Shown piece by piece: positions 4,604 to 49,120 of a stretch of 64,000 bases of DNA. The position numbers and the translations under genes are program-made. Source of the stretch: Burkholderiales bacterium (GTDB taxonomy: Bacteria > Pseudomonadota > Gammaproteobacteria > Burkholderiales > SHXO01); assembly GCA_036787045.1 (NCBI GenBank), contig DAIQQA010000007.1, positions 1,870-65,869 of the forward strand. Direction: 5' to 3'. Under the pieces are notes generated by a model, which saw nothing but the letters and a program-made list of their open reading frames with translations, was not told the origin of the DNA and ran no database searches. Position 1 is the first letter of the stretch. Every line of letters starts with the position of its first letter.

Positions 4604-4759
4604 CCTCTCACCACGAAGGCACGAAGACACGAAGAAAGGCGCAGGCAACAGGTTTCCAGGGCGCGGGATGCGGACTCGGAGCGCCTCTAGCCGCTTTGCC
4701 GCTGAACACGATCAACTCATTTCAGGCTTTGCTTTTCTTCGTGCCTTCGTGGTGAGCGG
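4604..4759. repeat. Foldback-like element A (CACGAAG subfamily)
   Basis: Left arm 4604-4639: CCTCTCACC-ACGAAGGC-ACGAAGAC-ACGAAGAAAGG. Unique core of about 90 bp. Right arm 4732-4759 is the reverse complement with 2 units (CTTTTCTTCGTGCCTTCGTGGTGAGCGG). The right arm ends 17 nt past the fhs stop. Confidence 0.85.
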
Positions 4760-4776
4760 TTGGTAGCAGTCGGAGG

Positions 4777-6492
4777 CTAGAAAAGCCCGACGATCCGGCC
4801 GTCGTCAGCGATATCGATGCGCTCCGCCGCGGGCACCTTGGGCAGCCCGGGCATGGTCATGATATCGCCGCAGATCATGACGACGAACTCGGCGCCGGCG
4901 GCGAGCCGCACCTCGCGGACGTTGACGACGTGGCCGGAGGGCGCACCGCGCAATCCAGGGTCGGTGGAGAAGGACGACTGGGTCTTGGCCACGCAGATCG
5001 GGCAGCGCCCGTAGCCCTCGGCTTCCAGCCTGTCGATCTGCGCGCGCACTTTGCTGTCCGCCGCGACCTCGGCCGCACCGTAGATCTTTGTCGCCACGGC
5101 CCGCAGCTTGTCCCAGAGACTGGCCGCGTCCTCGTAGACGAAGTGGAAGTCGGTGGGCGTGCGCTCGATCAGCTCGACCACCGTGCGCGCCAGCGCCTCG
5201 GCACCCTTTCCGCCCTCGGCCCAGTGACGCGCGAGCACGACCGGGGCCTCGTGATGCGCCATCTTGCGCTGGAGCAGCTCGATCTCGGCCGGCGTGTCGT
5301 GGGTGAAGTGATTGATCGACACCACGCAAGGCAGGCCATAGTGGTTGCGCACGTTGTTGACATGCCGCTCCAGATTGGCGATGCCCTGCTTCAGGGCCCC
5401 AAGGTTCTCAGTATTGAGCGTCTTGAGATCGGCGCCGCCGTGGTACTTGAGCGCCCGGATCGTCGCCACGATCACGCACGCGTCCGGTCGCAGCCCGGAC
5501 TTGCGGCACTTGATGTCGACGAACTTCTCCGCGCCGAGGTCCGCGCCGAACCCCGCTTCGGTGACGACGTAGTCGGCCAGCTTCAGCGCGGCCCCGGTGG
5601 CAATCACCGAGTTGCAGCCGTGGGCGATGTTGGCGAACGGACCGCCGTGAATGAAAGCGAGATTGTGCTCGAGGGTCTGCACCAGGTTCGGCTTGAGGGC
5701 GTCCTTGAGCAGCACGGCCATGGCCCCGTCGGCCTTGAGATCGCGCGCACGAACCGGCTTCTGGTCGCGGGTGTACGCGACCACGATGTTGCCCAGCCTC
5801 TGCTTCAGATCCTTCAACGACGTGGCGAGACAGAAGATCGCCATCACCTCCGAGGCGACGACGATGTCGAAGCCGTCCTGGCGCGGGTAGCCGTTGGCCG
5901 TGCCGCCCAGCGAGACCACGATATCGCGCAGCGCACGGTCGTTCATGTCCACTACGCGCTTCCAGGTGATCCTGCGCAGGTCGATCCCCAGCTCGTTGCC
6001 CTGGTGGATGTGGTTGTCCAGCATCGCCGCGAGGAGATTATTGGCCAGTGCTATGGCGCTGAAGTCGCCGGTGAAGTGCAGGTTGATGTCCTCCATCGGC
6101 ACCACCTGGGCGTAGCCGCCGCCGGCCGCGCCGCCCTTCACGCCGAATACCGGGCCCAGACTCGGCTCGCGCAGGCAGATCATCGCCTTCTTGCCGATCC
6201 GGTTGAGCGCATCGCCCAGGCCGACGGTGGTGGTGGTCTTGCCTTCGCCCGCCGGCGTCGGGCTGATGGCGGTCACGAGGACGAGCTTCCCTTGCTTGCG
6301 CCCAGCGAGGGAATCCAGATAGTCGAGGGACACCTTGGCCTTGTAGTGCCCGTAGGGTTCCAGCACTTCGTCGGGAATGCCGAGCCGTTCCTGCGCAAGC
6401 TCTGCAATGCGGCGCAGCTTCGACTGCTGCGCGATTTCGATGTCGGTGAGCAAGGGGGCTCCTGGGGTGGTTGCCTCGGGCGCGGGCGCCAT
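4777..6492 (-). CDS. fhs: Formate--tetrahydrofolate ligase
   Basis: 571 aa with full-length FTHFS pattern (DIEIAQ ..., P-loop [35 protein letters not shown]). Confidence 0.95.
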
Positions 6493-6530
6493 TCTAGCGT
6501 GCTGGACGGCCTGCTACGAAAAGGGCGAAG

Positions 6531-6705
6531 CTCTCACCACGAAGACACGAAGGCACGAAGAAAATCGAAGAGCTCATCTGCCCTGCGCAGATCTGGATCT
6601 GTGGGTTGGACGTACGGCTGAGAAGGAAAGCGCGCGAAGGGCAACGATTGGGGTTCTCCATTACGTCATGTTTTCTTCGTGCCTTCGTGCCTTCGTGGTG
6701 AGAGG
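6531..6705. repeat. Foldback-like element B (CACGAAG subfamily)
   Basis: Left arm 6531-6564: CTCTCACC-ACGAAGAC-ACGAAGGC-ACGAAGAAAA. Right arm 6671-6705: TTTTCTTCGTGCCTTCGTGCCTTCGTGGTGAGAGG. Unique core of about 105 bp. It fills the spacer between the regulator stop (6724) and the fhs start (6492). Confidence 0.9.
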
Positions 6706-6723
6706 TAAGCCGTAGTCGCAGCC

Positions 6724-7872
6724 TCAGCGTCCGCCGCGGTTCGAGACGCGACGTTCCAGAGCACGGCCGCCAGGGCGCGAGACGTTGCCCTCCGTCAGCC
6801 ACGGAAACGCCTGCGTCAGCTCCAGGATCTCGCCGGCGCGGTCGGCGCGATAGCCCGGGAGCGAGCGCGTGAGCTCCTCGAACTCGGGCCCGCGCAGCAG
6901 CCGCAGCAACTCCTGCACGGACGGATAGGCCAGTGTCTCGCGGCCGGTGAGCAGGAGGTAGCGCTCGCTCGCCACCGGCACGAAGTCGAGGTCGAACTGG
7001 CGCGCCGCCGCCTCCACGCCGAAACCGGCATCGGCCATGCCGCTGGCCACGTACGCCGCGACAGCGGCATGCGTGTACTCCTCGTTCGGCCAGCCGTTGA
7101 TCCGCTGCGGATCGAGTCCCTGCTCCTCGAGCATCGTTTCGAGCAGAAGCCTGGTCCCCGAGCCGCGCTGGCGGTTGATGAACCGCACGTCCGGCCGGGC
7201 CAGCGCCGCGATCGAATCGATCTGCTTCGGGTTGTGCGGGCGCACGAAGATCCCCTGCTGCCGGCGCACCAGGAAGATCAGGCACTGGTCCGCGGGCCGA
7301 AGCCAGCTGCGGTATTCGGCCACCGCACGCGCGCCGCGGTCGCCCTCGGGAACATGGAAGCCTGCTATGTCGCAGGCGCCGCGGGCAAGCGACGCGAGCG
7401 AGTCGGCGGCAGAGAGGTACTGCAGATCGAGGCCTATGCGAGTGTGCCGGCGCAGCAGCTCCGGCAGCTGCGCGACCGCATAGCCGTAGCTGGCGTGGAT
7501 GCGCAGCGTCGGGCTGTGCTCGGCGAGCGCGCGGCTCAGCTCGAGGTTGAGCTCCGAGGCGATGTTCTCGAGCTGCGGCAGCAGGCGGGCGCGGGCACGG
7601 GCCTGGGCCCACACCAGCTTTTCCCCCAACGGCGAGAGCGTTGCGCCGCGCCCCTGCCGCAACAGGACCAGCTCGGAGCCGAAGAACTCGGACCAGCGCG
7701 CGATGATGTTCCAGGCGTGCCGGTAAGACATCCCGGCGCGCTGCGCGGCTGTCGTGAGCTTGCCGCTCTCGTGCACGGCATGCAACAGGTCGAACAGACG
7801 ATGGTCGACCTCCTCTCCGGCCTCGTTGCTGAACACCCACGCAGGGCGGATCTCCATGCGCCTCATATGCAC
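6724..7872 (-). CDS. Transcriptional regulator: ModE-like winged HTH N-terminus plus periplasmic-binding-protein-like (oxyanion-type) domain
   Basis: 382 aa. The N-terminus LLHAVHESGKLTTAAQRAGMSYRHAWNIIARWSEFFGSELV..RGGATLSPLG is ModE/LysR-HTH-like. The C-terminal ~250 aa resemble a PBP-type ligand domain. Divergent from fdsG. Confidence 0.7.
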   Translation of the reverse strand: MHMRRMEIRPAWVFSNEAGEEVDHRLFDLLHAVHESGKLTTAAQRAGMSYRHAWNIIARWSEFFGSELVLLRQGRGATLSPLGEKLVWAQARARARLLPQLENIASELNLELSRALAEHSPTLRIHASYGYAVAQLPELLRRHTRIGLDLQYLSAADSLASLARGACDIAGFHVPEGDRGARAVAEYRSWLRPADQCLIFLVRRQQGIFVRPHNPKQIDSIAALARPDVRFINRQRGSGTRLLLETMLEEQGLDPQRINGWPNEEYTHAAVAAYVASGMADAGFGVEAAARQFDLDFVPVASERYLLLTGRETLAYPSVQELLRLLRGPEFEELTRSLPGYRADRAGEILELTQAFPWLTEGNVSRPGGRALERRVSNRGGR

Positions 7873-12957: not shown

Positions 12958-13004
12958 AAGGCGGTCACGCCTCGCCCCTCACGTCTCGAACCTCGCGCCT
13001 CGCA

Positions 13005-13232: not shown

Positions 13233-13307
13233 GCCTGGATCTCGCAGCGCTCGTGAGCAAGCTCGATTCGTCACGTGTGAACCCCACACCGCCCCGGCGG
13301 CTGCGCC

Positions 13308-13392
13308 GCCACCCCGCCTCGTGAGAGGCGGGGAGGAGTAAGTTCCTCCCCTCCTGCCCGAGGAGGGGTGGCCCGAAGGGCCGGGGTGGTGG
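13308..13392. repeat. REP-like G/C-tract multi-hairpin element
   Basis: Outer pairing GCCACCCCG ... CGGGGTGGTGG encloses hairpins CCCCGCCTC-GTGA-GAGGCGGGG, CCCCTCCT-GCCCG-AGGAGGGG and TGGCCC-GAA-GGGCCG. Lies between the convergent fdsD and RraA-like genes. Confidence 0.7.
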
Positions 13393-13432
13393 GAGCTTGC
13401 CCGAGGTGGCCGAAGGCGTCGGCGTCAGGCGC

Positions 13433-15565: not shown

Positions 15566-16216
15566 TCAGCCCTGATCCTCCGGTCCATAGACGATGACGG
15601 AGAGGAGATGAATGGGCGTCTCGATCAGCCGCTCGGGGCCGTGCGGCACGTCGCCGCGAAACGTAAGGGCGTCACCCGGCTCGAGCATATACGTCTGCTT
15701 GCCGTGCCGGTACTCGATCTTGCCTTTGAGCAGGTAGAGGAACTCGGTACCGGGATGCTCGAAGCTTGGAAAGACCTCCGAGGCATCGTCCATCGTCACC
15801 AGGAACGGCTCGAAGCTCTTGCGCGGCCCCTTGTCGTAGGCGAGCAGATGATAGGTGTGCCCGCGCTTGGTGCCACGACGCACCACCTCCATCCCTTCGC
15901 TCGCCTTCACGAGCTGCGCGCCGCCCGCGGGCAGCTCGTAGTCACGGAACATCTGCGACATCGACACACCCAGCGCCTGGGCGATGCGGGACAGGGTGTC
16001 CAGGCTCGTTGCGGCCTGCCCGTTCTCGATCTTGGACAGCATGCCGCGGCTGATGCCCGCTTGCGCCGCGACATCTGCGATCGTGAGGTGGTCGCGCTGC
16101 CGCAGCGCGCGGATCACCCCGCCGAGGTAGCGCTCGAGTGAGCGAGTGGCCGCCGGCTCGGGTGCGCGCTCTGTGGCCACGCGCGGGCCCTTTTTCGTGG
16201 ATGGAGGACGGCTCAC
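15566..16216 (-). CDS. XRE-family HTH plus cupin-domain transcriptional regulator
   Basis: HTH LTIADVAAQAGISRGMLSKIENGQAATSLDTLSRIAQALGV, followed by a C-terminal cupin (GTEFLYLLKGKIEYRHG...GDALTFRGDVPH). Confidence 0.85.
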   Translation of the reverse strand: MSRPPSTKKGPRVATERAPEPAATRSLERYLGGVIRALRQRDHLTIADVAAQAGISRGMLSKIENGQAATSLDTLSRIAQALGVSMSQMFRDYELPAGGAQLVKASEGMEVVRRGTKRGHTYHLLAYDKGPRKSFEPFLVTMDDASEVFPSFEHPGTEFLYLLKGKIEYRHGKQTYMLEPGDALTFRGDVPHGPERLIETPIHLLSVIVYGPEDQG

Positions 16217-16222
16217 TGCCTA

Positions 16223-16361
16223 CCTCTCTCTTCACCACAGAAGCGCAGAGAACCCCGAAGCGCGGTGACTGAAGTTAGCCGGAGTGGGATCCAGCGTGCA
16301 TCGACTCCCAGCATGGGAACGGCCTCGTTTTCTCTGTGCCTCTGTGCCTCTGTGGTTCGAG
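16223..16361. repeat. Foldback-like element L (ACAGAGG subfamily; left arm degenerate)
   Basis: Right arm 16327-16361: GTTTTCTCTGTGCCTCTGTGCCTCTGTGGTTCGAG. Degenerate left arm 16223-16265: CCTCTCTCTTCACC-ACAGAAGC-GCAGAGAAC-CCCGAAGC. The right arm ends 7 nt past the GS-like stop. Confidence 0.65.
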
Positions 16362-16368
16362 TCTTGCG

Positions 16369-17703
16369 TCAGAAAAACTCGAGATAGCGCTCGACTTCCC
16401 ACTGGGAAACGTGGCGCTGGTACTCCACCCACTCCATGCGCTTGAGGCGGATGAGCTCCTCGGCGAGGTCCTTGCCGATCGCCTCGCACAGCACCCCGTC
16501 CGTCTCCAGAGCATCCAGCGCCTCGTTGAGGTTCTGCGGCAGCACGCCGATGCCCGCTTTCTTCAGATCGGCGCTGCTCCACTCGTACAGGTTGGTGTTG
16601 TTCGGGGGACCCGGGTCCATCTTCTTCGCGACGCCGTCCATGCCGGCCGCGAGGATTGCCGCGGAAGCGAGATAGGGATTGCAAGAGCCGTCCGGCAGGC
16701 GCATCTCCAGGCGGCCGTACGGGATGCGGACCATGCACGTGCGGTTGTTGTCGCCGTAGGTGATGTAGGCCGGCGCCCAGGTCGCCCCGGAAAGGGCGCG
16801 GCCCACCACCAGGCGCTTGTAGGAGTTGACGGTCGGCGCACAGATTGCGGTCAGAGCCCGCGCATGGTGCAGCAGGCCGCCCAGGAACTGGTAACCCATC
16901 TTCGACAAGCCCAGCCCGTTCTTGTCCTTGTCGTCGTGGAACAGGTTCTTAGTCTTGTCGTCGCCGATGGAGATGTGGAAGTGGCCGCCGGTGCCCGTGC
17001 GAGTGGAGAACGGCTTGGGCATGAAGGTGGCGATCATGCCCATCTGGTTGGCGATCTCCGAGGCCGCCATCTTGAGATAGATATGCCGGTCCGCCGTGGT
17101 CAGGGCGTCGCCGTAGGTGAAGTTGACTTCGAACTGACCGTTGGCGTCCTCGTGGTCGATCTGATACACATCGATCCCGACCTGCCGCAGCGAGTCGACC
17201 AGCCGCTCCAGGAAGGCGGCGCTGCGCGCCAGCCCCTTGTAGTCGTAGCAGGGCTTCTCGAGGTTGTCCGTGTCGTCGCATGGGCCGACGCTCCCATCCG
17301 CGCGGCGCTTGAGCAGCATGAACTCGGGCTCGATACCCGTGTACATGGTCATGCCCTTCTTCGCCAAGACATCGAGCGCGCTCTTGAGTGCCAGGCGAGA
17401 GTCGTACGGGTAGGGCTTGCCACGCACATGCCCCCAGGTGGCCATGCGCGCAAACCCCGGCATCCATGGGATCACCTGCAGCGTGTCGAGGTCGCCGACG
17501 GCCATGTAATCCGGCCCGTGCGGCCCCATGCCGAAGCCCCAAAGCGCGAAGCCGGCAAACCCGGCGCCGTCGGTCAGCACCATTTCCAGGTGCTCGACGG
17601 GGACCGCCTTGGCCTTGGCCGAGCCGTGGATGTCCACGAACTGGGCCAGGATGAACTTGATGTTGTTGTCCTTGAGGAATTTCCTCGCTTGCTGAGCTGT
17701 CAT
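16369..17703 (-). CDS. Type III glutamine-synthetase family ligase (GlnT / gamma-glutamylmethylamide synthetase-like)
   Basis: 444 aa. GS catalytic-domain motifs ([28 protein letters not shown]...[17 protein letters not shown]). Last gene of the sarcosine-oxidase-like / glutamate-synthase-like cluster. Confidence 0.85.
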
Positions 17704-17739
17704 GGTCTCCCCTCTTCTCCCTGCGCCATCAGAAAAACA

Positions 17740-18408
17740 TCAGCCGCCCGCTGCGTCCGCAAACAGCTTGCCGAATCCTACCGCTGCACCGCCGACTTCG
17801 CGCACGATCCCGAGCAGCGTTTCCCAGAGATACGGGGCGAAGGTGCCGTCGCACCAGATCCGAAGCCACGGCCTGCCGCGGACCTCGTCCCAGAGCGCCA
17901 GCACCGACACCCCAACCATGGAAGTCATGACTACGCCGCGCTCGCCCGGTGCATGGGCATTGAAGTTCACGTTGCAGGTTTGTGCCAATAGATCGTTCAA
18001 CCGCTCGCCGGCCAGCGCCAGCGCCGCGTCCTGCCGGATGACCGGATAAACCCCAGGCGCTACTTCGAGGACACTGCGCCAACGCTCCACGGCATTGCCT
18101 GCGGGTCGATCCTCCAGGAAGAACTCCGAGCGCGCGAGGCGGGCGACGGTCACGCCCTCGGGCGTGCGCGTCCAGGTGTTCACTCCATCCGGCACGCTCA
18201 CACCCTGGCTGCGCAGCCATTCCTCTGCTTTGGGCCCCTTCACGCCCATGCGCGGGAGACAGCTTGCGTCGGCCAGCATGATGGGAGCGGCTGCAGCGTC
18301 ACGCGGCAGCTTGAGCGCCGTCTGCATGCCGTGCATCTCGGTCCATCCCGGGCTCTCGGGGATCAGCAGGTCGTGCAGCGGGCTGCGGCGCAGGGTTGCT
18401 GTCGTCAT
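17740..18408 (-). CDS. Sarcosine-oxidase gamma-subunit-like protein (SoxG/MgdD-like)
   Basis: 222 aa in the SoxG-typical position directly after the alpha subunit (4-nt overlap). Pattern RRSPLHDLL ... RMGVKGPKAEEWL. Confidence 0.75.
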   Translation of the reverse strand: MTTATLRRSPLHDLLIPESPGWTEMHGMQTALKLPRDAAAAPIMLADASCLPRMGVKGPKAEEWLRSQGVSVPDGVNTWTRTPEGVTVARLARSEFFLEDRPAGNAVERWRSVLEVAPGVYPVIRQDAALALAGERLNDLLAQTCNVNFNAHAPGERGVVMTSMVGVSVLALWDEVRGRPWLRIWCDGTFAPYLWETLLGIVREVGGAAVGFGKLFADAAGG

Positions 18409-21302: not shown

Positions 21303-21319
21303 CGCCCCCCACCCCCAAA

Positions 21320-21500
21320 CCTCTCACCACGAAGACACGAAGACACGAAGGAAGACAAGAACGGATGAGCAGAAAACACCGCATGCGGCTGGGTTGCGGG
21401 TAGACACGCCGGATGCAATCGCCCACGCGATCCTTGACGCAACCCGCTGACCGACTCCATTCTGTTTTTCTTCGTGTCTTCGTGTCTTCGTGGTGAGCGG
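21320..21500. repeat. Foldback-like element C (CACGAAG subfamily)
   Basis: Left arm 21320-21357: CCTCTCACC-ACGAAGAC-ACGAAGAC-ACGAAGGAAG. Right arm 21465-21500: TTTTTCTTCGTGTCTTCGTGTCTTCGTGGTGAGCGG, with 3 of 3 units matching. Unique core of about 105 bp. Lies between the soxD-like stop and the soxA-like start. Confidence 0.9.
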
Positions 21501-21507
21501 TTGTCGT

Positions 21508-21762
21508 TCATCCCTCACCCCACAGATACGTCCGCACCACCCGATCGGCAGCCGTATCGCGCTCGGCGATGAACCACACACCGCTGGCGAGGTGACACCA
21601 CCACTCCTTCTTGATGCCGGGCGAGCCGTTGCGGTTGAAGACGTAGTCGGCCCACTGCTCGTCGGTGCAGGTGTCCGGGTCAGGCATGGGGCGCACTTCG
21701 CCGGCGTAGGCGAACTCCGACACCGGGCGGGGGCCGTTGATCGGGCAGGTCATTATTTTCAT
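21508..21762 (-). CDS. Sarcosine-oxidase delta-subunit-like protein (SoxD/MgdB-like)
   Basis: 84 aa. MKIMTCPINGPRPVSEFAYAGE ... parallels the SoxD N-terminus (LIxCPxCGPRxxxEFxxGGE). Confidence 0.85.
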   Translation of the reverse strand: MKIMTCPINGPRPVSEFAYAGEVRPMPDPDTCTDEQWADYVFNRNGSPGIKKEWWCHLASGVWFIAERDTAADRVVRTYLWGEG

Positions 21763-21788
21763 TCTGGTACTACTTCAGTCGACTACTT

Positions 21789-22144
21789 CTCAACCCAAAT
21801 GCCCAAAGTCCGCAAAGGGCGCAAAGGAAACGCAGTTCAGTGAAGCCATACGGTCACTGCCGTGCCTGCGAGCAGTACACACCTGGTCACGCATCCCGGC
21901 AGCACGGCACAACAGTGCCCGCCTGAGTGGCTCAGCGGGTCGCTCTGGGGCTGGATCGAGAAGCACCCTTCGTTTGTCTACACCTCACCCCCCGCCTCCG
22001 GCAAGGGAAAGGGCGCCTCGCCTGCCAGGCTTCCGGCTAATGGAAGCGCCGATCGCTTTCCTTTGCGGACCTCTGCACCTCTGCATTGAGATCTTTCTGT
22101 TTTCTCTTTGCGCCCTTTGCGTCCTTTGCGCCTCTGCGTTGAGG
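21789..22144. repeat. Composite foldback-like element D (GCAAAGG/GCAGAGG subfamilies, nested)
   Basis: Left arm 21789-21835: CTCAAC-CCAAATGC-CCAAAGTCC-GCAAAGGGC-GCAAAGGAAAC. Two tandem right arms: 22055-22090 (..CCTTTGCGGACCTCTGCACCTCTGCATTGAG) and 22094-22144 (..CTCTTTGCGCCCTTTGCGTCCTTTGCGCCTCTGCGTTGAGG). Possible degenerate inner left arm / REP-like piece at 21983-22018. Confidence 0.8.
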
Positions 22145-22155
22145 TGTAAACGCTG

Positions 22156-24696: not shown

Positions 24697-24725
24697 TCGA
24701 GTGCCAGTAGCGCAGAAACCCCTAA

Positions 24726-24909
24726 CCTCTCACCACGAAGGCACGAAGACACGAAGGAAAGACACTAATAATAAGAAGAGCGCGTTCCTCGATTAGGAGC
24801 CGCGAGCGCGACACCGATCGTATTGTTCTCCCACGTTTGACTTCCACCGTGTCCTCCTTGGTCTAGCTTTTGTTACTGAGGTTTTCTTCGTGTCTTCGTG
24901 GTGAGAGGT
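24726..24909. repeat. Foldback-like element E (CACGAAG subfamily)
   Basis: Left arm 24726-24761: CCTCTCACC-ACGAAGGC-ACGAAGAC-ACGAAGGAAAG. Right arm 24881-24909: GTTTTCTTCGTGTCTTCGTGGTGAGAGGT (2 units). The inverted repeat extends outward (CCCCTAA.. / ..TAGGGG). The unique core is AT-richer than its surroundings. Confidence 0.9.
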
Positions 24910-24926
24910 AGGGGTAGCTCCTCGCC

Positions 24927-27812: not shown

Positions 27813-28004
27813 CGCTCAACGCCAAGGACGCCAAGGAAAGCAAGATCATTTCCGTGTACGACCTGCCGCGCTCCCTCGCGTTGCGAATGGTGCTGCGGCC
27901 CCCTGCGACGTGCTCCGGGGTTGCGCGCCGCGCCGAGGCTGCCCCTTGCCTCTCCATTGAGCTTTGCTTTCCTTGGCGTCCTTGGCGTCCTTGGCGTTGA
28001 GCGG
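27813..28004. repeat. Foldback-like element F (GCCAAGG subfamily)
   Basis: Left arm 27813-27845: GCTCAAC-GCCAAGGAC-GCCAAGGAAAGCAAG. Right arm 27962-28004: CTTTGCTTTCCTTGGCGTCCTTGGCGTCCTTGGCGTTGAGCGG (3 units). Unique core of about 115 bp. Confidence 0.9.
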
Positions 28005-29265: not shown

Positions 29266-29469
29266 GCGACGGTCTGACGTAAGGAACTGAACGGCCTATA
29301 TTTTCGGGTTTCGCCGAGCCTGCTGTCAAGAACGGTGGGAAACATTTTTTCCCTTGAGGAAACAACGCGAAGCCTGCGGCTGTCTCGCAGGAGCACTCTT
29401 TCAGTCGGTATCCCTGACATACGTCATTGTTTACAATCCCTCCCTGACCCACTCGCTGACAGGCCTCCC

Positions 29470-30783: not shown

Positions 30784-30797
30784 TTCTCGACACCAGA

Positions 30798-30998
30798 CCT
30801 CAACGCAAAGACGCGAAGGACGCAAAGGGCGCAAGTAAGATCCCTTGCGACTGCCCGCCTGCGGATAGCACAAGGCCGGTCCATACCCCGAATTGCTTTG
30901 TCAGGCAAACGGAGGTCACCGGATCAAGTGGTTAGACTCGACCGACACGAAATCCTTGTTCCGTTTTTCTTTGCGTTCTTTGCGCCTTTGCGTTGAGG
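30798..30998. repeat. Foldback-like element G (GCAAAGG subfamily)
   Basis: Left arm 30798-30835: CCTCAAC-GCAAAGAC-GCGAAGGAC-GCAAAGGGC-GCAAG. Right arm 30964-30998: TTTTTCTTTGCGTTCTTTGCGCCTTTGCGTTGAGG. Unique core of about 128 bp. Starts 14 nt after the gshA stop and ends 13 nt before the gshB ATG. Confidence 0.9.
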
Positions 30999-31011
30999 TT
31001 TTGCCTGCATC

Positions 31012-31956: not shown

Positions 31957-31977
31957 TACTTCAACCCATTGATTCCA

Positions 31978-32259
31978 CCTCTCACCACGAAGGCACGAAG
32001 ACACGAAGAAAACCGAAAGGAGGAAGACAGGTGCGCCTTGCCGATGTTCCACGTCTGCCAGGCGATGTTTCGTAGCTACCGTGTCGCTGTATAGCTGCCC
32101 CCAAAGGCAGGAACGCAAAGGACGCAAAGAACAACGACGTAGCGGATCCCGCCCGCTGACAGACAGCTGGGGTCAAACCGGCACCTTGCCAGTGGAATGA
32201 GCTCCGATTTGCTTCGCGGATTCTCCTTCGCGTACCTTGGCGTCCTTCGCGCTGAAGGG
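31978..32259. repeat. Composite/chimeric foldback-like element H
   Basis: Left arm H1 31978-32012: CCTCTCACC-ACGAAGGC-ACGAAGAC-ACGAAGAAAACC. Capless inner left arm 32098-32137: ..GGAAC-GCAAAGGAC-GCAAAGAAC... Right arm 32208-32259 belongs to a different subfamily; its reverse complement is CCCTTCAGC-GCGAAGGAC-GCCAAGGTAC-GCGAAGGAGAA.. Confidence 0.75.
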
Positions 32260-32341
32260 TCGCGCGGGGCTCTGGTCTCGCGCCTCGCTCCTGCGGGCAG
32301 GGTAGAATCAGCAGCATCGAATCTCTGCAAACCACTTCCGC

Positions 32342-32758
32342 ATGGTCGGTATCCTCATCGTCGCCCACGGTACCCTGGGAGAGAGCCTCATCCACTGCGC
32401 CAGCCAAATGCTGGGCACCCGGCCGCTCAATCTCATGCAGGTCGGGGTGACCATCCACGACGATCCGCAGCAGATGCTGCCTCAGGCCGTCAAGCTCGTG
32501 CGCCAGCTGGACCAGGGCGACGGCGTGCTCGTGCTGACCGACGTGTATGGCGCCACGCCGTCCAACCTCGCCTCGAAACTCCTGATCCCGGGCCGGGTGG
32601 AAGGCGTGGCGGGCGTGAATCTGCCGATGCTGGTGAGGGCCCTCACCTACCGCAAGGAACCGCTCGATGTTGTGGTCCGCAAGGCCGTGTCGGGCGGCAT
32701 CGAAGGGGTGACGCAGATGCCGGTGGCGAGCCGCGGAAATGCAGCAGCGGGAAGTTGA
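32342..32758 (+). CDS. PTS EIIA component, mannose/fructose family
   Basis: 138 aa. N-terminal MVGILIVAHGTLGESL contains the phospho-His motif. In the gshB-EIIA-HPr-EI arrangement. Confidence 0.85.
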   Translation: MVGILIVAHGTLGESLIHCASQMLGTRPLNLMQVGVTIHDDPQQMLPQAVKLVRQLDQGDGVLVLTDVYGATPSNLASKLLIPGRVEGVAGVNLPMLVRALTYRKEPLDVVVRKAVSGGIEGVTQMPVASRGNAAAGS

Positions 32759-33008
32759 GATCATCAACAAGCTCGGCCTGCACGCGCGCGCGTCGGCCAA
32801 GCTTACCCAGCTCGCCGGCCAGCATCAGTGCGAGGTATGGCTGTCGCGCAACGGTCGGCGGGTCAACGCCAAGAGCATAATGGGCGTGATGATGCTCGCC
32901 GCCGCAAAGGGTTCCAGGGTCATTATCGAGACCAGTGGAGCGGACGAAGGAGCGGCGATGAACGCCATCGTACAGTTGATTGCGGAGAAGTTCGGAGAAA
33001 GCGAGTGA
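32739..33008 (+). CDS. ptsH: Phosphocarrier protein HPr
   Basis: 89 aa. The active-site context INKLGLHARASAKL contains His15. Overlaps the EIIA gene by 20 nt. Confidence 0.9.
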   Translation: MQQREVEIINKLGLHARASAKLTQLAGQHQCEVWLSRNGRRVNAKSIMGVMMLAAAKGSRVIIETSGADEGAAMNAIVQLIAEKFGESE

Positions 33009-33118
33009 GCGAGTGAGGCGTGAGGCGTACGGTGCAGTCCCATGGAGTGCCGTGACCCGAAGCTGAACCCTCGCCCTTCTCGGCCCACGCCTCACGCCTA
33101 ACGCCTCACGCCTCACGC
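33003..33118. repeat. Foldback-like element I (GTGAGGC subfamily)
   Basis: Left arm 33003-33028: GAGTGAGC-GAGTGAGGC-GTGAGGC-GT, which overlaps the ptsH stop codon (33006-33008). Right arm 33086-33118: CACGCCTCACGCCTAACGCCTCACGCCTCACGC, ending 2 nt before the ptsI ATG. Confidence 0.85.
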
Positions 33119-33120
33119 AC

Positions 33121-34845: not shown

Positions 34846-34858
34846 AAGCGAGAACGGC

Positions 34859-34983
34859 GGACCTAGGACGTGGGACGTAGGACATCGCGGCGGCGGGCAC
34901 GTGCCGGCGCGCCCGGGCGGACGCCGCCGGCGCGACAGATGAGCGGCGCCGGAGAGATTCTCCACGTCCCACGTCCAAGGTCC
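34859..34983. repeat. Foldback-like element J (GGACGT subfamily), possible ptsI terminator
   Basis: Left arm GGACCTAGGACGTGGGACGTAGGAC (34859-34883). Right arm TCCACGTCCCACGTCCAAGGTCC (34961-34983). About 22 of 24 nt are complementary. The GC-rich palindromic core is followed by TCGGTTTTCCC. Confidence 0.8.
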
Positions 34984-35350
34984 TCGGTTTTCCCATGCTG
35001 CGTGAGACCGGGAGAAGGCTGCGAAGTACGTTTTCCGCGCACACAGGAGCCGCTTCTGACAGCATGATGCAAAATGCGAGATCTCACTCCGACCATGCCG
35101 CTGAACCAATGCATGCGAACGCTCAATCAAGGAGTTGCTGCGCGGGTGCGCGCCGGAGCGTGGAGGAGGGGCCCCGCTTGCGGGGATCCGACCGCGGAGG
35201 CGCGCATAGAGACGCGGTGATAACGGCCCGCTCGATCCGCTGCGGGGTCGCATCCACCGGCCAAGGCCGGCGGAACCTGCTCCGCCCTCCACGGATCCCA
35301 CCAGAAAGCCCGGAGGCGCGCCGCGAAGCCACTCTTGCAGCAGCCCGCTA

Positions 35351-36400
35351 ATGCGCATCGACTCGGAGCAGCTCGGCCAGCACCTCAGGCGCGCACTGAA
35401 GCCGCTGTACACGGTCTACGGTGACGAGACGCTGCTGGCGCTGGAGGCGGCCGACCGCATCCGCGCGCAGGCACGCGCAGCCGGGCACTCGGAGCGCGAA
35501 GTGCTGACAGTGGAGTCGGGATTCGACTGGTCGCTGCTGGCGATGAGCGGCAACAGCCTGTCCCTGTTCGGCACGCGCCGCATCCTCGAGCTGCGCATCC
35601 CCAATGGCAAGCCCGGCGCCGAGGGTGCCGAAGCCATCAAGCGGTTGGCCGCCGATCTGCCGCCGGACACGATTACGCTGGTCCTCTTGCCCAAGCTCGA
35701 CAAGGCTACGCTCGCAACCGCCTGGTTCGAGGCGCTGGATGCGGCAGGTGTCACCGTGGCAACGAACCCTGTGTCGCCCGCCCGCCTGCCCGAATGGCTG
35801 GCGGGCCGCCTTGAGCAGCAGGGCCAGCAGGCCGACCCGCAGACGCTGCAATTCCTGGCGGACATGGTCGAGGGCAACCTGCTCGCCGCGCAGCAGGAGG
35901 TGCACAAGCTCGCACTGCTGTTCCCGCCCGGAATGCTCACCCTGGAAGCAGTGGAGCCGGCGATCGCAGACGTGGCACGCTACGACGTGTTCAAGCTCGG
36001 CGAGGCGCTGCTGTCGGCGGATCGCGCGCGCTTCGTGCGCATGCTCGACGGGCTGAAGGGCGAAGGCGTGGCCCCGCCCCTGGTCCTGTGGGCGATCTCC
36101 GAGGAGATCCGGGCGCTGCTGAGGGTGTCCACCGCCGTATCGCAGCGGCGTCCCATGCAGGTTGCATTGCGCGAGGCGCGGGTCTGGGGTGCGCGCGCCG
36201 AGCTGCTGCCGCGGGCGCTGCAGCGTATGCAGGCCAGCGAGCTCGAGGACGCTCTGCTGGAGGCCGCGGCCGCTGACCGCATGAGCAAGGGTCTGGTGCG
36301 GGGCGACGTCTGGGACGCGCTGCTGCGCCTCGGGCTGCGTCTCATGCCGGCGCCCGCCGCGAGGCCCGCCAGAGGGAATCGCGGTAGAATCGCTCGATAG
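35351..36400 (+). CDS. holA: DNA polymerase III delta subunit
   Basis: 349 aa. HolA pattern ([50 protein letters not shown]). Confidence 0.85.
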
Positions 36401-37674: not shown

Positions 37675-37727
37675 CCATACCCGCTCGCCGCGGGCAGGCA
37701 TGACAACCAGAACAAACAGATCGGGCC

Positions 37728-42261: not shown

Positions 42262-42307
42262 GTTTGCTTTGCGTTCCTCTGCGTCTCTGCGCCTCTGCGG
42301 TTACAGG
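42262..42307. repeat. Lone foldback-type arm (GCAGAGG subfamily)
   Basis: GTTTGCTTTGCGTTCCTCTGCGTCTCTGCGCCTCTGCGGTTACAGG. The reverse complement is CCTGTAACC-GCAGAGGC-GCAGAGAC-GCAGAGGAAC-GCAAAGCAAAC. No partner arm seen in the preceding ~700 bp. Confidence 0.7.
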
Positions 42308-47269: not shown

Positions 47270-48136
47270 GTGAATAGCAAAGACGATCGAACGCACGAGA
47301 GCACGAGCAACATCGTGCTGCTCGAGCACGTCAATGTCACCGTCCCAGACCAGCGCGTAGCCACGCTGTTCTACGTGTCGGGCCTCGGCTTCACGCGCGA
47401 CCCCTACCTGATGGTCGGCGTGGAGAACATGTGGATCAACATTGGCCGCAGCCAGATGCATCTGCCGACCAGCCGCCCGCAGCGGCTCAGGGGCACGATC
47501 GGCCTGGTAGTTCCGGATCTGTCGTTGCTCAAGGAACGCTTGCGGCGGGTCGCGCCGGATCTGGCTGCAACCGAGTTCGCCTTCGCCGACCACGGCACCT
47601 TCGTCGCCGTGACCTGCCCCTGGGGCAACCGCTTCCGCTGCCACGCACCCGCCGCGGAGTTCGGAAGCGCCGAGCTGGCAATGCCCTACGTCGAGCTCGA
47701 CGTCCCTGCCGGGACCGCGGCCGGGATTGCCCGCTTCTACTCGGCGATCCTGCGTGCGAACACAGAGGTCCTCACGCGGGCGGGGATGCCCGCGGCCTGC
47801 GTATATGCGGGTGAGCATCAGCGCCTGTGGTTCCGGGAGAACGCCGACGCGATTCCGCCCTACGACGGTCATCACGTCCAGATCTACATCGCCGATTTCG
47901 CGGGCCCCTACGGTCTCTTGCTGGAGCGCAAGCTCATCACACGGCAGCCCAATGAGCACGAGTGGCGCTTCCGGGACATCGTCGACCTCGACACCGGCCG
48001 GCTGCTGTTCACCATCGAGCACGAAGTACGCAGCCTCGACAATCCGCTCTACGCGCGGCCGCTGGCCAACCGCAACCCGGCGCAGACCAACGTCGCCTAC
48101 GTGCCGGGGCGGGATGCGTTCTCCGGGAGCTACTGA
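47270..48136 (+). CDS. Hypothetical protein, possibly VOC/glyoxalase-fold
   Basis: 288-aa ORF with genome-typical codon bias. LEHVNVTVPD and the two-module organisation hint at a vicinal-oxygen-chelate fold. Family not confidently recognised. Confidence 0.5.
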   Translation: MNSKDDRTHESTSNIVLLEHVNVTVPDQRVATLFYVSGLGFTRDPYLMVGVENMWINIGRSQMHLPTSRPQRLRGTIGLVVPDLSLLKERLRRVAPDLAATEFAFADHGTFVAVTCPWGNRFRCHAPAAEFGSAELAMPYVELDVPAGTAAGIARFYSAILRANTEVLTRAGMPAACVYAGEHQRLWFRENADAIPPYDGHHVQIYIADFAGPYGLLLERKLITRQPNEHEWRFRDIVDLDTGRLLFTIEHEVRSLDNPLYARPLANRNPAQTNVAYVPGRDAFSGSY

Positions 48137-48142
48137 TAAACG

Positions 48143-48373
48143 CGTCAACCGCGGAGGACGCAGAGGACGCGGAGCAAAGACGATTACCGTCGTGGGCTTG
48201 GCACTCGCAGGAGGACGTCCGCGCGAACCGGTCGCCTCTCCCCCTGGCGGGAGAAGCTAGTACAGCGACACATTGGTTTCGAAACATCGGACGGTAAAGC
48301 CGGCGAGCGCCGGAAGCGCTTTTGGCCCCTCGTTCCGGTTTTCTTCGTGCCTTCGTGTCTTCGTGGTGAGAGG
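48143..48373. repeat. Chimeric foldback-like element K
   Basis: Left arm 48143-48182: CGTCAACC-GCGGAGGAC-GCAGAGGAC-GCGGAGCAAAGACG. Right arm 48338-48373 is CACGAAG type: GTTTTCTTCGTGCCTTCGTGTCTTCGTGGTGAGAGG. The core contains a REP-like hairpin, TCTCCC-CCTGGC-GGGAGA. Confidence 0.8.
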
Positions 48374-48439
48374 TGGAAGTTTGGTGTGTTGCAGTACCAG
48401 AGGTGAGGGGGCTGGCTTGGCTGAAGGCTCAGGCGGCCG

Positions 48440-49093
48440 ATGACTACCGCGTCGCACGGTGTCGACATCGCCTCGCAATGGACCGACGAGCTGGACCTGG
48501 AGGCGCTGCGCTTCGTGGTTTCGCCGAAGATCCCCAAGCGCGTCGCAATGGACCTCGGATGCGGCCTCGGCACGCAAGGCATCCGCTTCGCGGTGCTCGG
48601 CTGTCGCTCCTTCCTCTACGACATCGTCGACATCGGTGAGCGGATCGAGCGGATCAGACAGGCATTGGACATCACGGCGCTCGAGTTCAGGAAGCTCGAC
48701 CTGCGGCAGGCCACACCCGAGGACTTTCCCGCCGACGCTGGTGTGGCCTACTCGCAGAGGTTCATTCACTATCTTAGGTTCGACGAGGCGTCTCGCCTAC
48801 TGCGATCGCTGGCAGGCCGGCTGTGCGCGAAGGCCCGGCTGTTCCTCTCCGCCTCCGGCCTGGGCAGCGAGCTCGGGAGCGGATATGCCGACGCCACAGT
48901 GCCAATGGAGGATCGGTTTGCGCCGCTTGCGAGCGCGATGCAGGCGAAACACGGAGTCCGCGAGCCGGTGTGCCTGTACACGAAGGAGGAGTTGGAGCGG
49001 CTGGTCGTCGCACACGGCTTCGCAGCGGTCAGGACCTGGACCACGCCGTTCGGCAACGTCAAGGGCGTGTTCGAGCGTCAATCGACAGGATGA
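48440..49093 (+). CDS. Class I SAM-dependent methyltransferase
   Basis: 217 aa. SAM motif I VAMDLGCGLGTQG, followed by an acidic residue after strand 2 (FLYDIVD). Confidence 0.7.
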   Translation: MTTASHGVDIASQWTDELDLEALRFVVSPKIPKRVAMDLGCGLGTQGIRFAVLGCRSFLYDIVDIGERIERIRQALDITALEFRKLDLRQATPEDFPADAGVAYSQRFIHYLRFDEASRLLRSLAGRLCAKARLFLSASGLGSELGSGYADATVPMEDRFAPLASAMQAKHGVREPVCLYTKEELERLVVAHGFAAVRTWTTPFGNVKGVFERQSTG

Positions 49094-49120
49094 TCAGGAT
49101 TCTCCAGGATTGACAGGATT
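49086..49120. repeat. Tandem CAGGAT(T) x4 array, possible lone foldback-type arm
   Basis: CAGGATGAT-CAGGATTCTC-CAGGATTGA-CAGGATTCG with 9-10 nt periodicity, preceded by TCAATCGA. It overlaps the methyltransferase stop codon (49091-49093). No inverted partner found. Confidence 0.5.

What the first reader, a model, noticed from the sequence alone, without database searches (positions are those of the whole stretch)
4604..49120. Foldback-like intergenic element family: inverted arms of tandem 7-9 nt purine-rich units around unique cores
Twelve two-armed sites and two lone arms share one architecture. On the left there is a short cap (CCTCTCACC, CCGCTCACC, CCTCAAC, GCTCAAC, CTCGAACC, GTCAACC). 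It is followed by 2-4 tandem units (ACGAAGRC; GCAAAGGRC; GCCAAGGAC; GCRGAGGAC; ACAGAGGC; GTGAGGC; GGGACGT) and an A-rich tail. Then comes a core of roughly 55-220 bp that differs in every copy. The right side is the inverted mirror: T-rich tail, complementary units, and a GGTGAGAGG or GTTGAGG cap. Copies: A 4604-4759, B 6531-6705, L 16223-16361, C 21320-21500, D 21789-22144, E 24726-24909, F 27813-28004, G 30798-30998, H 31978-32259, I 33003-33118, J 34859-34983, K 48143-48373. Lone arms: 42262-42307 and 49086-49120. Patterned ends combined with non-conserved cores do not fit REP/BIME or ERIC elements, MITEs (whose cores are conserved) or CRISPR (direct repeats). The closest analogy I know is eukaryotic foldback transposons, whose long inverted termini are arrays of short tandem repeats around variable loops. 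I do not recognise a named bacterial family. Translated arms give strings such as TTKARRHEE and FFVPSCLRGE, which pollute ORF calls here.
Basis: seen in the sequence. Interest (0 to 1): 0.85.

Follow-up and report, generated by a model that had tools for sequence, protein, structure and literature searches.

The report
Tandem-repeat-armed hairpin inserts after stop codons
The window holds a dozen real hairpin-forming insertions just after stop codons, whose arms are short tandem repeats; the same arms occur across many bacterial phyla and elsewhere bracket two families of small, uncharacterised genes, which suggests an unnamed class of selfish mini-cassettes and their gene-less relics.

Summary
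All twelve two-armed sites and the lone arm at 42262 exist as described. Arm-like strings number 22, against 1.5±1.3 in shuffles, and 21 of 22 are intergenic. Matched arms fold into 25-42 bp stems (z −4 to −9.5). Every element starts 0-21 nt after a stop codon, and none lies in a divergent promoter region.

They are insertions. Relatives with 87-93% identical proteins have the two genes flanking element E abutting (TAG-C-ATG).

The exact arm CTCACCACGAAGNCACGAAG occurs in more than 104 loci across many phyla, mostly as simple hairpins. Purine-rich arms come first in 77 pairs and second in 5. In orthologous elements the arms covary while the cores are unalignable.

New lead: the same octamer arms bracket GxxExxY (PD-(D/E)XK) genes. 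Heptamer arms like those of element I bracket PF05635 four-helix-bundle ("23S rRNA intervening-sequence", Avd-like) genes in 5 of 5 gene families.

Most likely these are gene-less members of an IVS-like hairpin-cassette family that forms long double-stranded RNA stems in operon transcripts. How they insert is unknown.

Similar paired tandem repeats were reported, unexplained, in Geobacter (2009) and Xanthomonas (2015). Rfam has no match. The foldback-transposon analogy is only superficial.

The parts
4602..4761 (.). Element A. Left arm 4602-4640 is CCTCTCACC plus ACGAAGRC x3. Right arm 4731-4761 ends in GGTGAGCGG. It lies 16 nt after the fhs (-) stop; amtB (+) has its own terminator at about 4546-4575.
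   Evidence: I9, 96% complementary; z -6.8 / -5.8
6531..6705 (.). Element B, type-1 arms (3 units each). Complementarity extends outward to 6513-6722. It lies 2-18 nt after the stop of the 6724-7872 (-) gene.
   Evidence: I1; z -7.9 / -9.5
12965..13004 (.). Lone pyrimidine-type heptamer array (CGCCTCG/CACGCCT, about 5 units) just after the stop at 12957.
16223..16361 (.). Element L. Right arm is CTCTGTGC x3 plus GGTTCGAG; left arm is degenerate. It lies 7 nt after the stop of the glutamine-synthetase-like gene (16369-17703, -), which I read as gmaS.
   Evidence: z about -1
21318..21502 (.). Element C, type-1 arms (ACGAAGAC x3 on both sides). It lies 5 nt after the soxD-like stop, inside the sarcosine-oxidase-like (N-methylglutamate dehydrogenase) cluster.
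   Evidence: I3, 93%; z -7.7 / -9.3
21789..22148 (.). Element D, CTCAAC cap plus GCAAAGGRC units. It has an extra inner pyrimidine arm at about 22056-22091 and a 220-nt core. It lies 7-11 nt after the stop of 22156-24696 (-).
   Evidence: I2; z -4.3 / -6.6
24720..24914 (.). Element E, type-1 arms, 12 nt after the stop at 24927. It is an insertion: in relatives the two flanking genes abut.
   Evidence: (I8)
27813..28004 (.). Element F. Caps are GCTCAAC ... GTTGAGC; units are GCCAAGGAC. It lies 19 nt after the stop at 28024.
   Evidence: I6, I10; z -6.0 / -7.0
30797..30999 (.). Element G. Caps are CCTCAAC ... GTTGAGG; units are GCAAAGRC. It lies 13 nt after the stop at 30783.
   Evidence: I7; z -7.5 / -6.2
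31978..32259 (.). Element H, composite. It has a type-1 left arm (31978-32012), an inner purine arm GCAAAGGAC (about 32099-32135) and a right arm CCTTCGCG/CCTTGGCG (32216-32259). It lies 21 nt after the stop at 31956.
   Evidence: (z -0.2 / -1.4)
33003..33118 (.). Element I, heptamer class (GTGAGGC / GCCTCAC x2-5), 56-nt core. It starts at the stop of 32739-33008. Its unit is the same as in the arms that bracket PF05635 genes elsewhere.
   Evidence: I22; z -4.2 / -4.5
34850..34992 (.). Element J, heptamer class (GGGACGT/TAGGACG), GC-rich 70-nt core. It lies 4-13 nt after the stop at 34845 and about 358 nt before the next gene.
   Evidence: I5; z -6.1 / -6.3
42262..42307 (.). Lone pyrimidine-type arm (CCTCTGCG x3 plus GGTTACAGG), about 76 nt upstream of the 42383 (+) gene.
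48143..48373 (.). Element K, with mixed arms. Left is CGTCAACC plus GCRGAGGAC; right is CTTCGTGY x3 plus GGTGAGAGG. It lies 6 nt after the stop at 48136.
   Evidence: (z -1.2 / -0.5)
49084..49120 (.). CAGGATT array (period 9-10, 70% matches) across a stop codon. Membership in the family is not established.

Best explanation
The elements are gene-less members of a widespread, unnamed family of hairpin insertions.

Anatomy. Each consists of two self-complementary arms: an outer cap, then 2-5 tandem purine-rich units of 7-9 nt, then an A/T tail. The arms enclose an unconstrained interior.

Full-length relatives. These carry one small gene in the interior. With octamer/nonamer arms (CACGAAGN and similar) the gene is a GxxExxY PD-(D/E)XK nuclease-like gene. 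With heptamer arms (GTGAGGC and similar) it is a PF05635 four-helix-bundle gene ('23S rRNA intervening-sequence protein', Avd-like). The purine arm sits directly before the start codon and the pyrimidine arm directly after the stop.

Insertion. By an unknown route, the elements land between a host stop codon and the next ribosome-binding site, so they are co-transcribed with host operons.

Action in the transcript. The arms pair into a 25-42 bp duplex. This loops the insert out and brings the two host flanks together. I infer that, as with rRNA intervening sequences, this stem is an RNase III-type processing or stability determinant and is what makes such insertions tolerable inside operons.

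Maintenance. The arms are kept complementary by concerted change, either copying of one arm from the other or selection for pairing.

Shown: the anatomy, insertion status, stop-codon proximity, covariation, cross-phylum spread and the gene-arm association. Inferred: action at the RNA level, RNase III processing, any role of the two proteins, and the mobility mechanism.
For: Insertion:
- Element E splits a junction that reads TCC-TAG-C-ATG or TGA-GC-ATG in relatives with 87-93% identical proteins.
- Only 2 of 80 orthologous loci (about 0.9 Mb) hold any purine-then-pyrimidine pair, against 12 in this 64 kb. One of the two (L119) is an independent short hairpin at the same junction.
- Filled versus empty orthologous sites: L094 against window 37675-37727, L091 against L099, and L077 against L045.

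Position:
- 12 of 12 window elements begin 0-21 nt after a stop codon. 0 of 4 divergent intergenic regions has one.
- Across phyla, 54 of 99 elements lie within 25 nt of the stop of an ORF of at least 100 aa, against 14.2±3.5 for random placement.

Pairing:
- Fold z scores are -4 to -9.5.
- Arms of one element resemble each other more than arms of other type-1 elements (0 of 2000 permutations).
- Orthologous arms covary: CGCAAAGG/CCTTTGCG in one genome against CGCAGAGG/CCTCTGCG in the other, while the cores are unalignable. One element has a 29-nt insertion at mirror positions in both arms.

Spread:
- More than 104 loci from many phyla carry the exact 19-nt arm (about 4 expected by chance, my estimate). 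33 viral contigs carry a 17-nt version.
- Orientation: 77 purine-then-pyrimidine pairs against 5 of the reverse order.

Cargo genes:
- PF05635 genes are bracketed by inverted heptamer arrays in 5 of 5 gene families examined: L077, L188-197, L198-207, L208-217 and L268.
- GxxExxY genes have the CACGAAGN arm directly before the start codon in L027, L030, L218, L224, L227/228, L262 and L266. The CTTCGTG...GGTGA arm lies directly after the stop in L027, L030, L081 and L262.
- The catalytic-type residues E30, D70, E80 and K82 are 95-100% conserved in 120 homologues.
- PF05635 is the family found in 23S rRNA intervening sequences and is related to Avd (Pfam name; PMC10053308). PDB 2GSC has 5 chains.
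Against: - No cargo gene, and no detectable remnant of one, lies in any window core. Descent of the gene-less copies from cassettes is therefore inferred from shared arms only.
- The cores share nothing with each other, so recent copy-and-paste of whole elements is not shown.
- No insertion mechanism, target duplication or enzyme in cis was found.
- Stability is the same on sense and antisense strands, so nothing singles out RNA over single-stranded DNA.
- Three window elements (H, K, L) have arms that do not pair, and lone arms exist. Pairing is therefore not obligatory.
- RNase III cleavage is untested.
- GxxExxY genes turned up in only 4 of 104 arm-selected loci.
Confidence: 0.5

Rival explanations
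1. These are host-selected REP-like RNA hairpins with no selfish or mobile origin. They would be stop-codon-proximal stem-loops that each lineage evolves in place to tune mRNA decay, ribosome release or relative expression within operons. The tandem units would simply be an easy way to grow a long stem by slippage.
For: - The elements are stop-codon-proximal and lie inside operons.
- The arms covary while the cores drift.
- Unit number varies between near-identical strains, 4.6-10.4 copies.
- No mobility enzyme was found nearby.
- From my own knowledge, E. coli REPs within about 15 nt of a stop codon affect upstream translation and mRNA stability.
Against: - The same cap and unit sequence is kept from 42% to 70% GC genomes in many phyla and in viral contigs. 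Structure-only selection does not predict this.
- The elements appear abruptly at junctions where relatives have abutting or overlapping genes.
- The identical arms bracket two families of small, horizontally scattered genes.
Confidence: 0.2
2. These are DNA-level binding sites. Under this reading the tandem units are iterated sites for a nucleoid-associated or global regulatory protein, bound on duplex DNA at both ends of an intergenic region. This is the IHF/HU idea of Aklujkar et al. for G. metallireducens; the cargo proteins themselves are another candidate binder.
For: - The units are iterated and the orientation is fixed, 77 against 5.
- Mismatched arms (K, H) and lone arms exist, so pairing is not always needed.
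- The Geobacter authors proposed this, and IS elements sit at a fixed distance from such sites (PMC2700814).
- The PF05635 homologue crystallised with 5 chains, and arms hold 3-5 units.
Against: - Unit periods of 7, 8 and 9 bp are out of phase with the DNA helix.
- Many different unit sequences share one architecture.
- Compensatory changes and a mirrored insertion between arms point to pairing or arm-to-arm copying, not to a fixed binding motif.
- No element lies in any of the four divergent promoter regions.
Confidence: 0.12
3. These are foldback-type or MITE-type transposons. The arms would be terminal inverted repeats built of transposase-binding subrepeats, and the cores would be passenger DNA, mobilised in trans.
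For: - Inverted termini made of tandem subrepeats surround variable interiors.
- Presence/absence differences occur between related genomes.
- Arms occur in composite and stacked arrangements (D, H).
Against: - There are no target-site duplications at three resolved junctions.
- The inverted repeat often runs past the cap into copy-specific sequence (I1, I8, I9).
- No transposase was found among the neighbours of 104 loci.
- No two cores are alike.
- Most family members are plain hairpins with 8-30 nt loops.
Confidence: 0.07
4. These are integron attC-like recombination sites (a cluster of attC sites lacking an integrase).
For: - The caps of F (GCTCAAC ... GTTGAGC) fit the attC R''/R' consensus RYYYAAC/GTTRRRY as I recall it. 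G and D nearly fit.
- The sites are imperfect inverted repeats with variable centres placed after genes.
Against: - Type-1 caps (CTCACC/GGTGAG) do not fit.
- The genes between the sites are core metabolism, in an order conserved with relatives that lack the elements.
- The stems are near-perfect, without the fixed extrahelical bases of attC.
- Lengths reach 356 bp.
- I saw no integrase among the window genes I examined (partial).
Confidence: 0.02

Closest known systems
Paired tandem octa-, nona- and heptanucleotide sites of Geobacter metallireducens (Aklujkar et al. 2009, PMC2700814; classes 1-3)
   Same: Both have two arrays of 3-5 tandem 7-9 nt units on opposite strands, at variable distance, in intergenic regions and between genes of one operon (e.g. 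proBA). Mixed-class pairs occur in both. The class 2 unit TCTCCGTS is the reverse complement of CACGGAGA, which fits the unit grammar found here.
   Different: They were described only in one genome and interpreted as binding sites for IHF/HU-type global regulators. Caps, stop-codon proximity, insertion status, cross-phylum spread and cargo genes were not reported.
Convergent GGGAATC heptamer pairs of Xanthomonas and GGGGAYT repeats of Nostoc (Rehm et al. 2015, PMC4692102); TAACTGA repeats of Beggiatoaceae and cyanobacteria (MacGregor 2015, PMC4679880)
   Same: These are tandem heptamers, about 90% intergenic. 70-75 convergent plus/minus-strand pairs occur per Xanthomonas genome. They lie about 28 nt from the upstream ORF and about 160 nt from the next. 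Repeat length varies between close species.
   Different: The units differ. They were studied as G-quadruplex formers or translational signals. No link to hairpin insertion or to PF05635 was made. PDB 2GSC, the closest solved relative of the PF05635 cargo, is from Xanthomonas campestris, but I could not inspect its flanks.
23S rRNA intervening sequences (IVS)
   Same: Both are sporadic insertions whose two ends pair into a long stem around a variable interior, which in some bacteria encodes a PF05635 protein. Here the same protein family sits between complementary heptamer arms.
   Different: IVSs lie in rRNA helices and, from my own knowledge, are excised by RNase III. The elements here lie in mRNA intergenic spacers, and processing is untested. 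I could not check whether rRNA IVS stems are built of tandem units.
REP/BIME elements of enterobacteria
   Same: Both are abundant intergenic hairpins, often just after stop codons and inside operons. Neither occurs at divergent promoters. Both are known or suspected to modulate mRNA decay, and both serve as insertion targets for IS elements.
   Different: REPs are imperfect palindromes of about 35 nt with one conserved sequence per host and are tied to RAYT transposases. They have no tandem-unit arms, no long unique core and no cross-phylum sequence identity.
Eukaryotic foldback transposons; bacterial MITEs and mobile insertion cassettes
   Same: Both have inverted termini containing tandem subrepeats (foldback elements) and variable passengers between conserved ends (mobile insertion cassettes).
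   Different: Here there are no target-site duplications, no transposase and no conserved core. Most members are simple hairpins.
Free-standing homing endonuclease genes of phages
   Same: Both involve small nuclease-fold genes wedged between conserved host genes, with presence/absence polymorphism.
   Different: This is an analogy only. No cleavage or homing has been shown for GxxExxY proteins, and homing genes lack self-complementary flanks.

Membership tests
REP/BIME | A short (about 20-40 nt) imperfect palindrome with one conserved consensus per genome | tested here: not met
   The arms are tandem 7-9 nt units and are not palindromic on their own. At least 7 unit types occur in one window.
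REP/BIME | Association with a RAYT (TnpA-REP) gene | tested here: inconclusive
   None was found among ORFs of 104 arm-bearing loci. Whole genomes were not available.
MITE | Conserved internal sequence among copies and target-site duplications | tested here: not met
   The cores share no similarity. No duplications occur at three resolved junctions.
CRISPR array | Direct repeats regularly interspaced by spacers | tested here: not met
   The repeats are inverted, lie in separate intergenic gaps, and are separated by genes.
Integron attC | R''/R' core sites RYYYAAC ... GTTRRRY (consensus recalled from my own knowledge) | tested here: inconclusive
   The caps fit in F, nearly fit in D and G, and do not fit in the type-1 elements A, B, C, E (CTCACC/GGTGAG).
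Integron attC | Flanks mobile, promoter-less cassettes next to intI/attI | tested here: not met
   The flanking genes are conserved operon genes that abut in relatives. No integrase was seen among the genes examined.
Intrinsic terminator | A short GC-rich hairpin followed by a U run | tested here: not met
   The terminator scan gives 7 sites against 9.6 expected, and none is at an element. The T-rich tails lie inside the stem, not after it.
Rfam families (any) | A match to a curated covariance model | tested here: not met
   0 hits at gathering threshold over the window, and 0 at E<=1 over 16000-35500.
Foldback transposon | Long terminal inverted repeats of tandem subrepeats, plus transposition with target duplication | tested here: inconclusive
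   The first feature is met in form. The second is not met: no duplication and no transposase.
Paired tandem-repeat sites (Geobacter classes 1-3 / Xanthomonas heptamer pairs) | Two arrays of tandem 7-9 nt units on opposite strands, convergent, at variable spacing, intergenic | tested here: met
   (77 against 5 in orientation)
rRNA-type intervening sequence (IVS) | An insertion, relative to close relatives, whose ends pair into a long stem | tested here: met
rRNA-type intervening sequence (IVS) | Located in an rRNA helix and excised by RNase III | not testable with these tools
   The window has no rRNA. Processing needs RNA end-mapping.
GxxExxY / PF05635 arm-flanked cassette (proposed here) | A cargo ORF between the arms | tested here: not met
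   hmmsearch of both families against the six-frame window found no hit in any core. The window copies are gene-less.
GxxExxY / PF05635 arm-flanked cassette (proposed here) | The same cap, unit and tail sequences as the arms that flank the cargo genes | tested here: met
   TCTCACC-ACGAAGN units, the GTTTTCTTCGTG junction and the GGTGA(A/G) cap occur in L027, L030, L081 and L262. GTGAGGC units occur in L077, L188 and L268, as in element I.

The most novel reading that the evidence does not exclude
A previously unrecognised, cross-phylum class of selfish mini-cassettes exists. Each is a single small gene bracketed by self-complementary tandem-repeat leader and trailer sequences. The gene is either a GxxExxY PD-(D/E)XK nuclease or an Avd-like four-helix bundle. 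The cassettes colonise the few nucleotides after host stop codons (and, in rRNA, helix tips), fold themselves out of the host transcript, and decay into the gene-less hairpins seen here. If true, this would unify four unexplained observations: rRNA intervening sequences, the paired heptamer/octamer repeats of Xanthomonas and Geobacter (possibly also the tandem heptamers of cyanobacteria), and two large orphan protein families.
Probability: 0.3. Interest if true: 0.85.

Novelty: new variant of a known kind. Interest (0 to 1): 0.68.

Why it matters
About 3% of this window, and most of its co-directional gene junctions, are occupied by these hairpins. They sit inside operons for methylamine and one-carbon metabolism, where relatives have abutting genes, so they must affect how the operons are expressed.

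The same arms recur from Methylobacter to Gemmatimonadota, Acidobacteriota, Planctomycetota and Verrucomicrobiota, and in viral contigs.

Tying them to GxxExxY and PF05635 genes gives a testable function to two very large orphan protein families. It also offers a possible origin for rRNA intervening sequences and for the long-puzzling 7-9 nt tandem repeats of bacterial intergenic regions.

There is a practical consequence too. The arms break assemblies (many cargo genes sit on contigs of about 1 kb), create false N-terminal extensions, and inflate ORF calls.

Tried and rejected
- Rfam at gathering threshold and at E<=1: nothing. tRNA/tmRNA scan: none.
- Literature search by arm sequence: only chance primer hits.
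- Sigma-70 promoter and terminator scan over 16-35.5 kb: no enrichment and no site in any core. This rules out a simple 'terminator plus promoter' module.
- Clustering all ORFs of 104 arm-bearing loci to find an enzyme in cis: only generic families appeared (ABC-F, histidine kinases, binding proteins), and no transposase.
- Origin of the cores: blastn against each other, against 1.9 Mb of related loci and against PLSDB plasmids gave nothing. The exceptions are a marginal 35-41 nt H/K match and a 22-nt match between the core of I and L116.
- Remnants of cargo ORFs in window cores, using HMMs built from 120 homologues of each family with filters off (--max): none.
- Strand test for RNA-level selection, comparing sense and antisense minimum free energies: no consistent difference.
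- Integron attC reading: rejected, see the membership test.
- CsrA (GGA), Rho rut and Chi-site readings of the units: I considered these from the unit sequences and dropped them. The units are too varied, and only CRCNRAG is shared.
- G-quadruplex reading (as proposed for Xanthomonas): the octamer units lack G runs.

Full report
**1. What is in the window**

The window has 65% G+C. It encodes amtB/glnK, formate-tetrahydrofolate ligase and sarcosine-oxidase-like subunits. It also encodes a glutamine-synthetase-like protein and glutamate-synthase-like subunits. From these Pfam hits and the reading frames I read a methylamine (N-methylglutamate) pathway and a formate dehydrogenase.

Three wetland-sediment metagenome contigs are 99.6-99.98% identical to it, without gaps. 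The nearest genome found is a Burkholderiales MAG, at 76-80% nucleotide identity over one stretch.

A degenerate arm grammar finds 22 arms, against 1.46±1.25 in 200 dinucleotide shuffles, and 21 of the 22 are intergenic.

Nine elements (A, B, C, D, E, F, G, I, J) fold with 25-42 arm-to-arm pairs on either strand, with z scores of -4 to -9.5. H, K and L, whose arms are mismatched or degenerate, fold no better than shuffles.

- The array at 49086 is a different, cap-less repeat.
- A lone heptamer array at 12965-13004 had been missed.

**2. Position and insertion status**

Every one of the twelve elements begins 0-21 nt after a stop codon. Eleven lie between co-directional genes and one between convergent genes. 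None of the four divergent (promoter) gaps has one.

Element E sits where relatives with 87-93% identical proteins read stop-C-ATG or stop-GC-ATG. The whole 230-bp spacer, core included, is therefore new in this lineage. It lies exactly between the stop codon and the next start, without a target duplication.

Among 80 orthologous loci (about 0.9 Mb), only two carry any purine-then-pyrimidine pair. One of these (L119) is an independent short hairpin, (CGCAGAGN)3 ... (TCTCTGCG)3-GGTGAA, at the very same junction.

Three further filled-versus-empty comparisons were found. In one of them this window is the empty allele (37675-37727, against L094).

**3. The family is far wider than the window**

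The hosts include:

- Burkholderiales, Methylobacter (including M. tundripaludum SV96) and Thiohalophilus;
- Geobacteraceae and other Deltaproteobacteria;
- Gemmatimonadota, Acidobacteriota, Verrucomicrobiota and Planctomycetota;
- Kiritimatiellae, Saprospiraceae, Armatimonadota and SAR324.

Genome G+C ranges from 42% to 70%. Thirty-three IMG/VR viral contigs carry a 17-nt version.

Outside the Betaproteobacteria the element is usually a plain hairpin: TCACC-(ACGAAGNN)2-3, a loop of 8-30 nt, then (NNCTTCGT)2-3-GGTGA. Long unique cores are a betaproteobacterial habit.

Other unit types (CGCAAAGG, CACAGAGG, CGCGGAGG, and many G-rich heptamers) co-occur in the same genomes. Their caps follow a T-N-A-[A/C]-C pattern.

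- Purine-rich arms come first in 77 adjacent pairs and second in 5.
- Across phyla, 54 of 99 elements lie within 25 nt of a long-ORF stop, against 14.2±3.5 for random placement.

**4. How the arms evolve**

Arms of one element are more alike than arms of different type-1 elements (0 of 2000 permutations).

In orthologous elements of two Burkholderiales MAGs (flanks 84-92% identical), one has CGCAAAGG/CCTTTGCG units and the other CGCAGAGG/CCTCTGCG. The changes are compensatory on both sides, while the cores cannot be aligned.

Another element has the same 29-nt segment inserted at mirror positions in both arms.

Unit number varies from 4.6 to 10.4 among contigs encoding an identical protein.

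The arms therefore change in concert, either by copying one arm from the other or by selection for pairing. The cores drift or turn over.

**5. Cargo genes (the new lead)**

In L077 a heptamer-armed element (GTGAGGC x4 on each side, identical down to a GATAGGC variant) encloses a 125-aa PF05635 protein (E = 3e-32). The orthologous site in a relative at 90-93% identity lacks it.

Starting from its homologues, four further PF05635 gene families were examined. This set includes contigs from the same wetland samples as the window-identical contigs. All have an inverted heptamer array directly before the start codon and directly after the stop. That makes 5 of 5 families.

Independently, octamer arms of exactly the window's type flank GxxExxY genes (TIGR04256/PF13366, E about 1e-39):

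- The CACGAAGN arm is directly before the start codon in L027, L030, L218, L224, L227/228, L262 and L266.
- The CTTCGTG...GGTGA arm is directly after the stop in L027, L030, L081 and L262.

The PD-(D/E)XK-type residues E30, D70, E80 and K82 are 95-100% conserved. PF05635 is the '23S rRNA intervening-sequence protein' family, related to the DGR protein Avd. Its closest solved relative, Xanthomonas XCC0516 (PDB 2GSC), has five chains. No paper in the searched library links either family to these repeats.

**6. Interpretation**

The best reading is that the window's elements are gene-less members of a hairpin-cassette family whose full-length members carry one small gene. The purine arm serves as the leader: its GAAGG and GAGG motifs lie 6-10 nt before several cargo start codons. 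The pyrimidine arm serves as the trailer. This would explain why the purine arm is always 5'.

A long duplex between the ends loops the insert out of whatever transcript it has entered. This is the logic of rRNA intervening sequences. From established knowledge, duplexes longer than about 20 bp are RNase III substrates. From my own recollection, hairpins near stop codons (E. coli REPs) alter upstream translation and decay.

RNA-level action, processing, any role of the proteins and the insertion mechanism are all inferred. The window cores contain no remnant of either gene, and there is no strand bias in stability.

The rivals are:

- host-evolved REP-like hairpins;
- duplex-DNA binding sites, as proposed for Geobacter;
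- a foldback or MITE transposon;
- integron attC sites.

Each is weighed in its own section of this report.

**7. Relation to what is known**

The architecture was catalogued, unexplained, in G. metallireducens. There it appears as paired tandem octa-, nona- and heptamers on opposite strands at variable distance; class 2 has the same unit grammar (PMC2700814). It was also catalogued in Xanthomonas as 70-75 convergent GGGAATC pairs about 28 nt from the upstream ORF (PMC4692102).

This is therefore not a categorically new kind of repeat. The following appear new relative to the library searched, and Rfam has no model:

- the cap-plus-octamer family;
- its cross-phylum reach;
- its status as an insertion after stop codons;
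- its link to two orphan gene families.

Noticed in passing
window 62406-62523 and 13290-13400; also L086 1420-1530, L045 1045-1095: This is a different inverted-repeat family, built on GGGAGGG/CCCTCCC-type motifs (e.g. CCCTCCCCTTCAGGGGGAAGG). It lies between convergent genes, recurs in related Burkholiales-type MAGs, and once sits nested inside the core of a type-1 element.
   Followed up: partly
L208-L217 (contigs encoding identical protein P0119): The pyrimidine-arm heptamer array next to the PF05635 gene varies from 4.6 to 10.4 copies among samples, so it behaves like a VNTR. The same loci carry a second heptamer pair (GTGAGGG x4 / CTCCTCA x6) and a TACTAAC x8-12 array.
   Followed up: partly
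L091 1120-1150 and 1330-1360; L091 about 4570-4600: A 29-nt segment, CCGCAAGCGGCACAAGTGTTCCCTTGAGG (with a CCGC-AA-GCGG mini-hairpin), is inserted between cap and units at mirror positions in both arms of one element. In another element it is in only one arm.
   Followed up: no
L240/L254 (IMGVR_UViG_3300035698_017911): One viral contig carries five purine-type octamer arms. Four of them are followed about 30-40 nt later by a terminator-like hairpin (CCCCCGGTG...CACCGGGGG) instead of a complementary arm.
   Followed up: no
L027 3540-4140 (Geobacteraceae MAG): About 35 nt of flank (TTATGCAGATTCTCTC-ATAACC-TG-AAAAC) is repeated after two successive GGTGAA caps. One follows a gene-less hairpin and the other follows a GxxExxY cassette. 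This may be a footprint of how the cassette entered.
   Followed up: no
window 33063-33084 vs L116 11929-11950: There is a 22-nt match (21 of 22 identical, CTGAACCCTCGCCCTTC-CGGC) between the core of element I and the intercistronic spacer of an unrelated operon junction in a relative (E about 0.001 in a 1.9 Mb search).
   Followed up: no
L115 about 3730-3790: A tandem 15-mer (GGCACCGTTAGACAG x3) sits exactly at a stop/start junction of the orthologous operon in another organism. Gene junctions in this operon seem prone to repeat insertions.
   Followed up: no
L188-L207, L077 (metK-ahcY-[PF05635]-metF): The PF05635 cassette between ahcY and metF is conserved across cargo proteins that are 71-99% identical to the L077 protein, yet absent in L045. 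The pyrimidine arm is read as the first ~10 codons of annotated metF (MNASRL...), a likely mis-annotated start.
   Followed up: partly
window 4546-4575: A canonical intrinsic terminator (GGGCGCCC-TGC-GGGGCGCCC plus T7) follows amtB. Element A therefore belongs to the 3' end of the convergent fhs gene rather than to amtB.
   Followed up: yes
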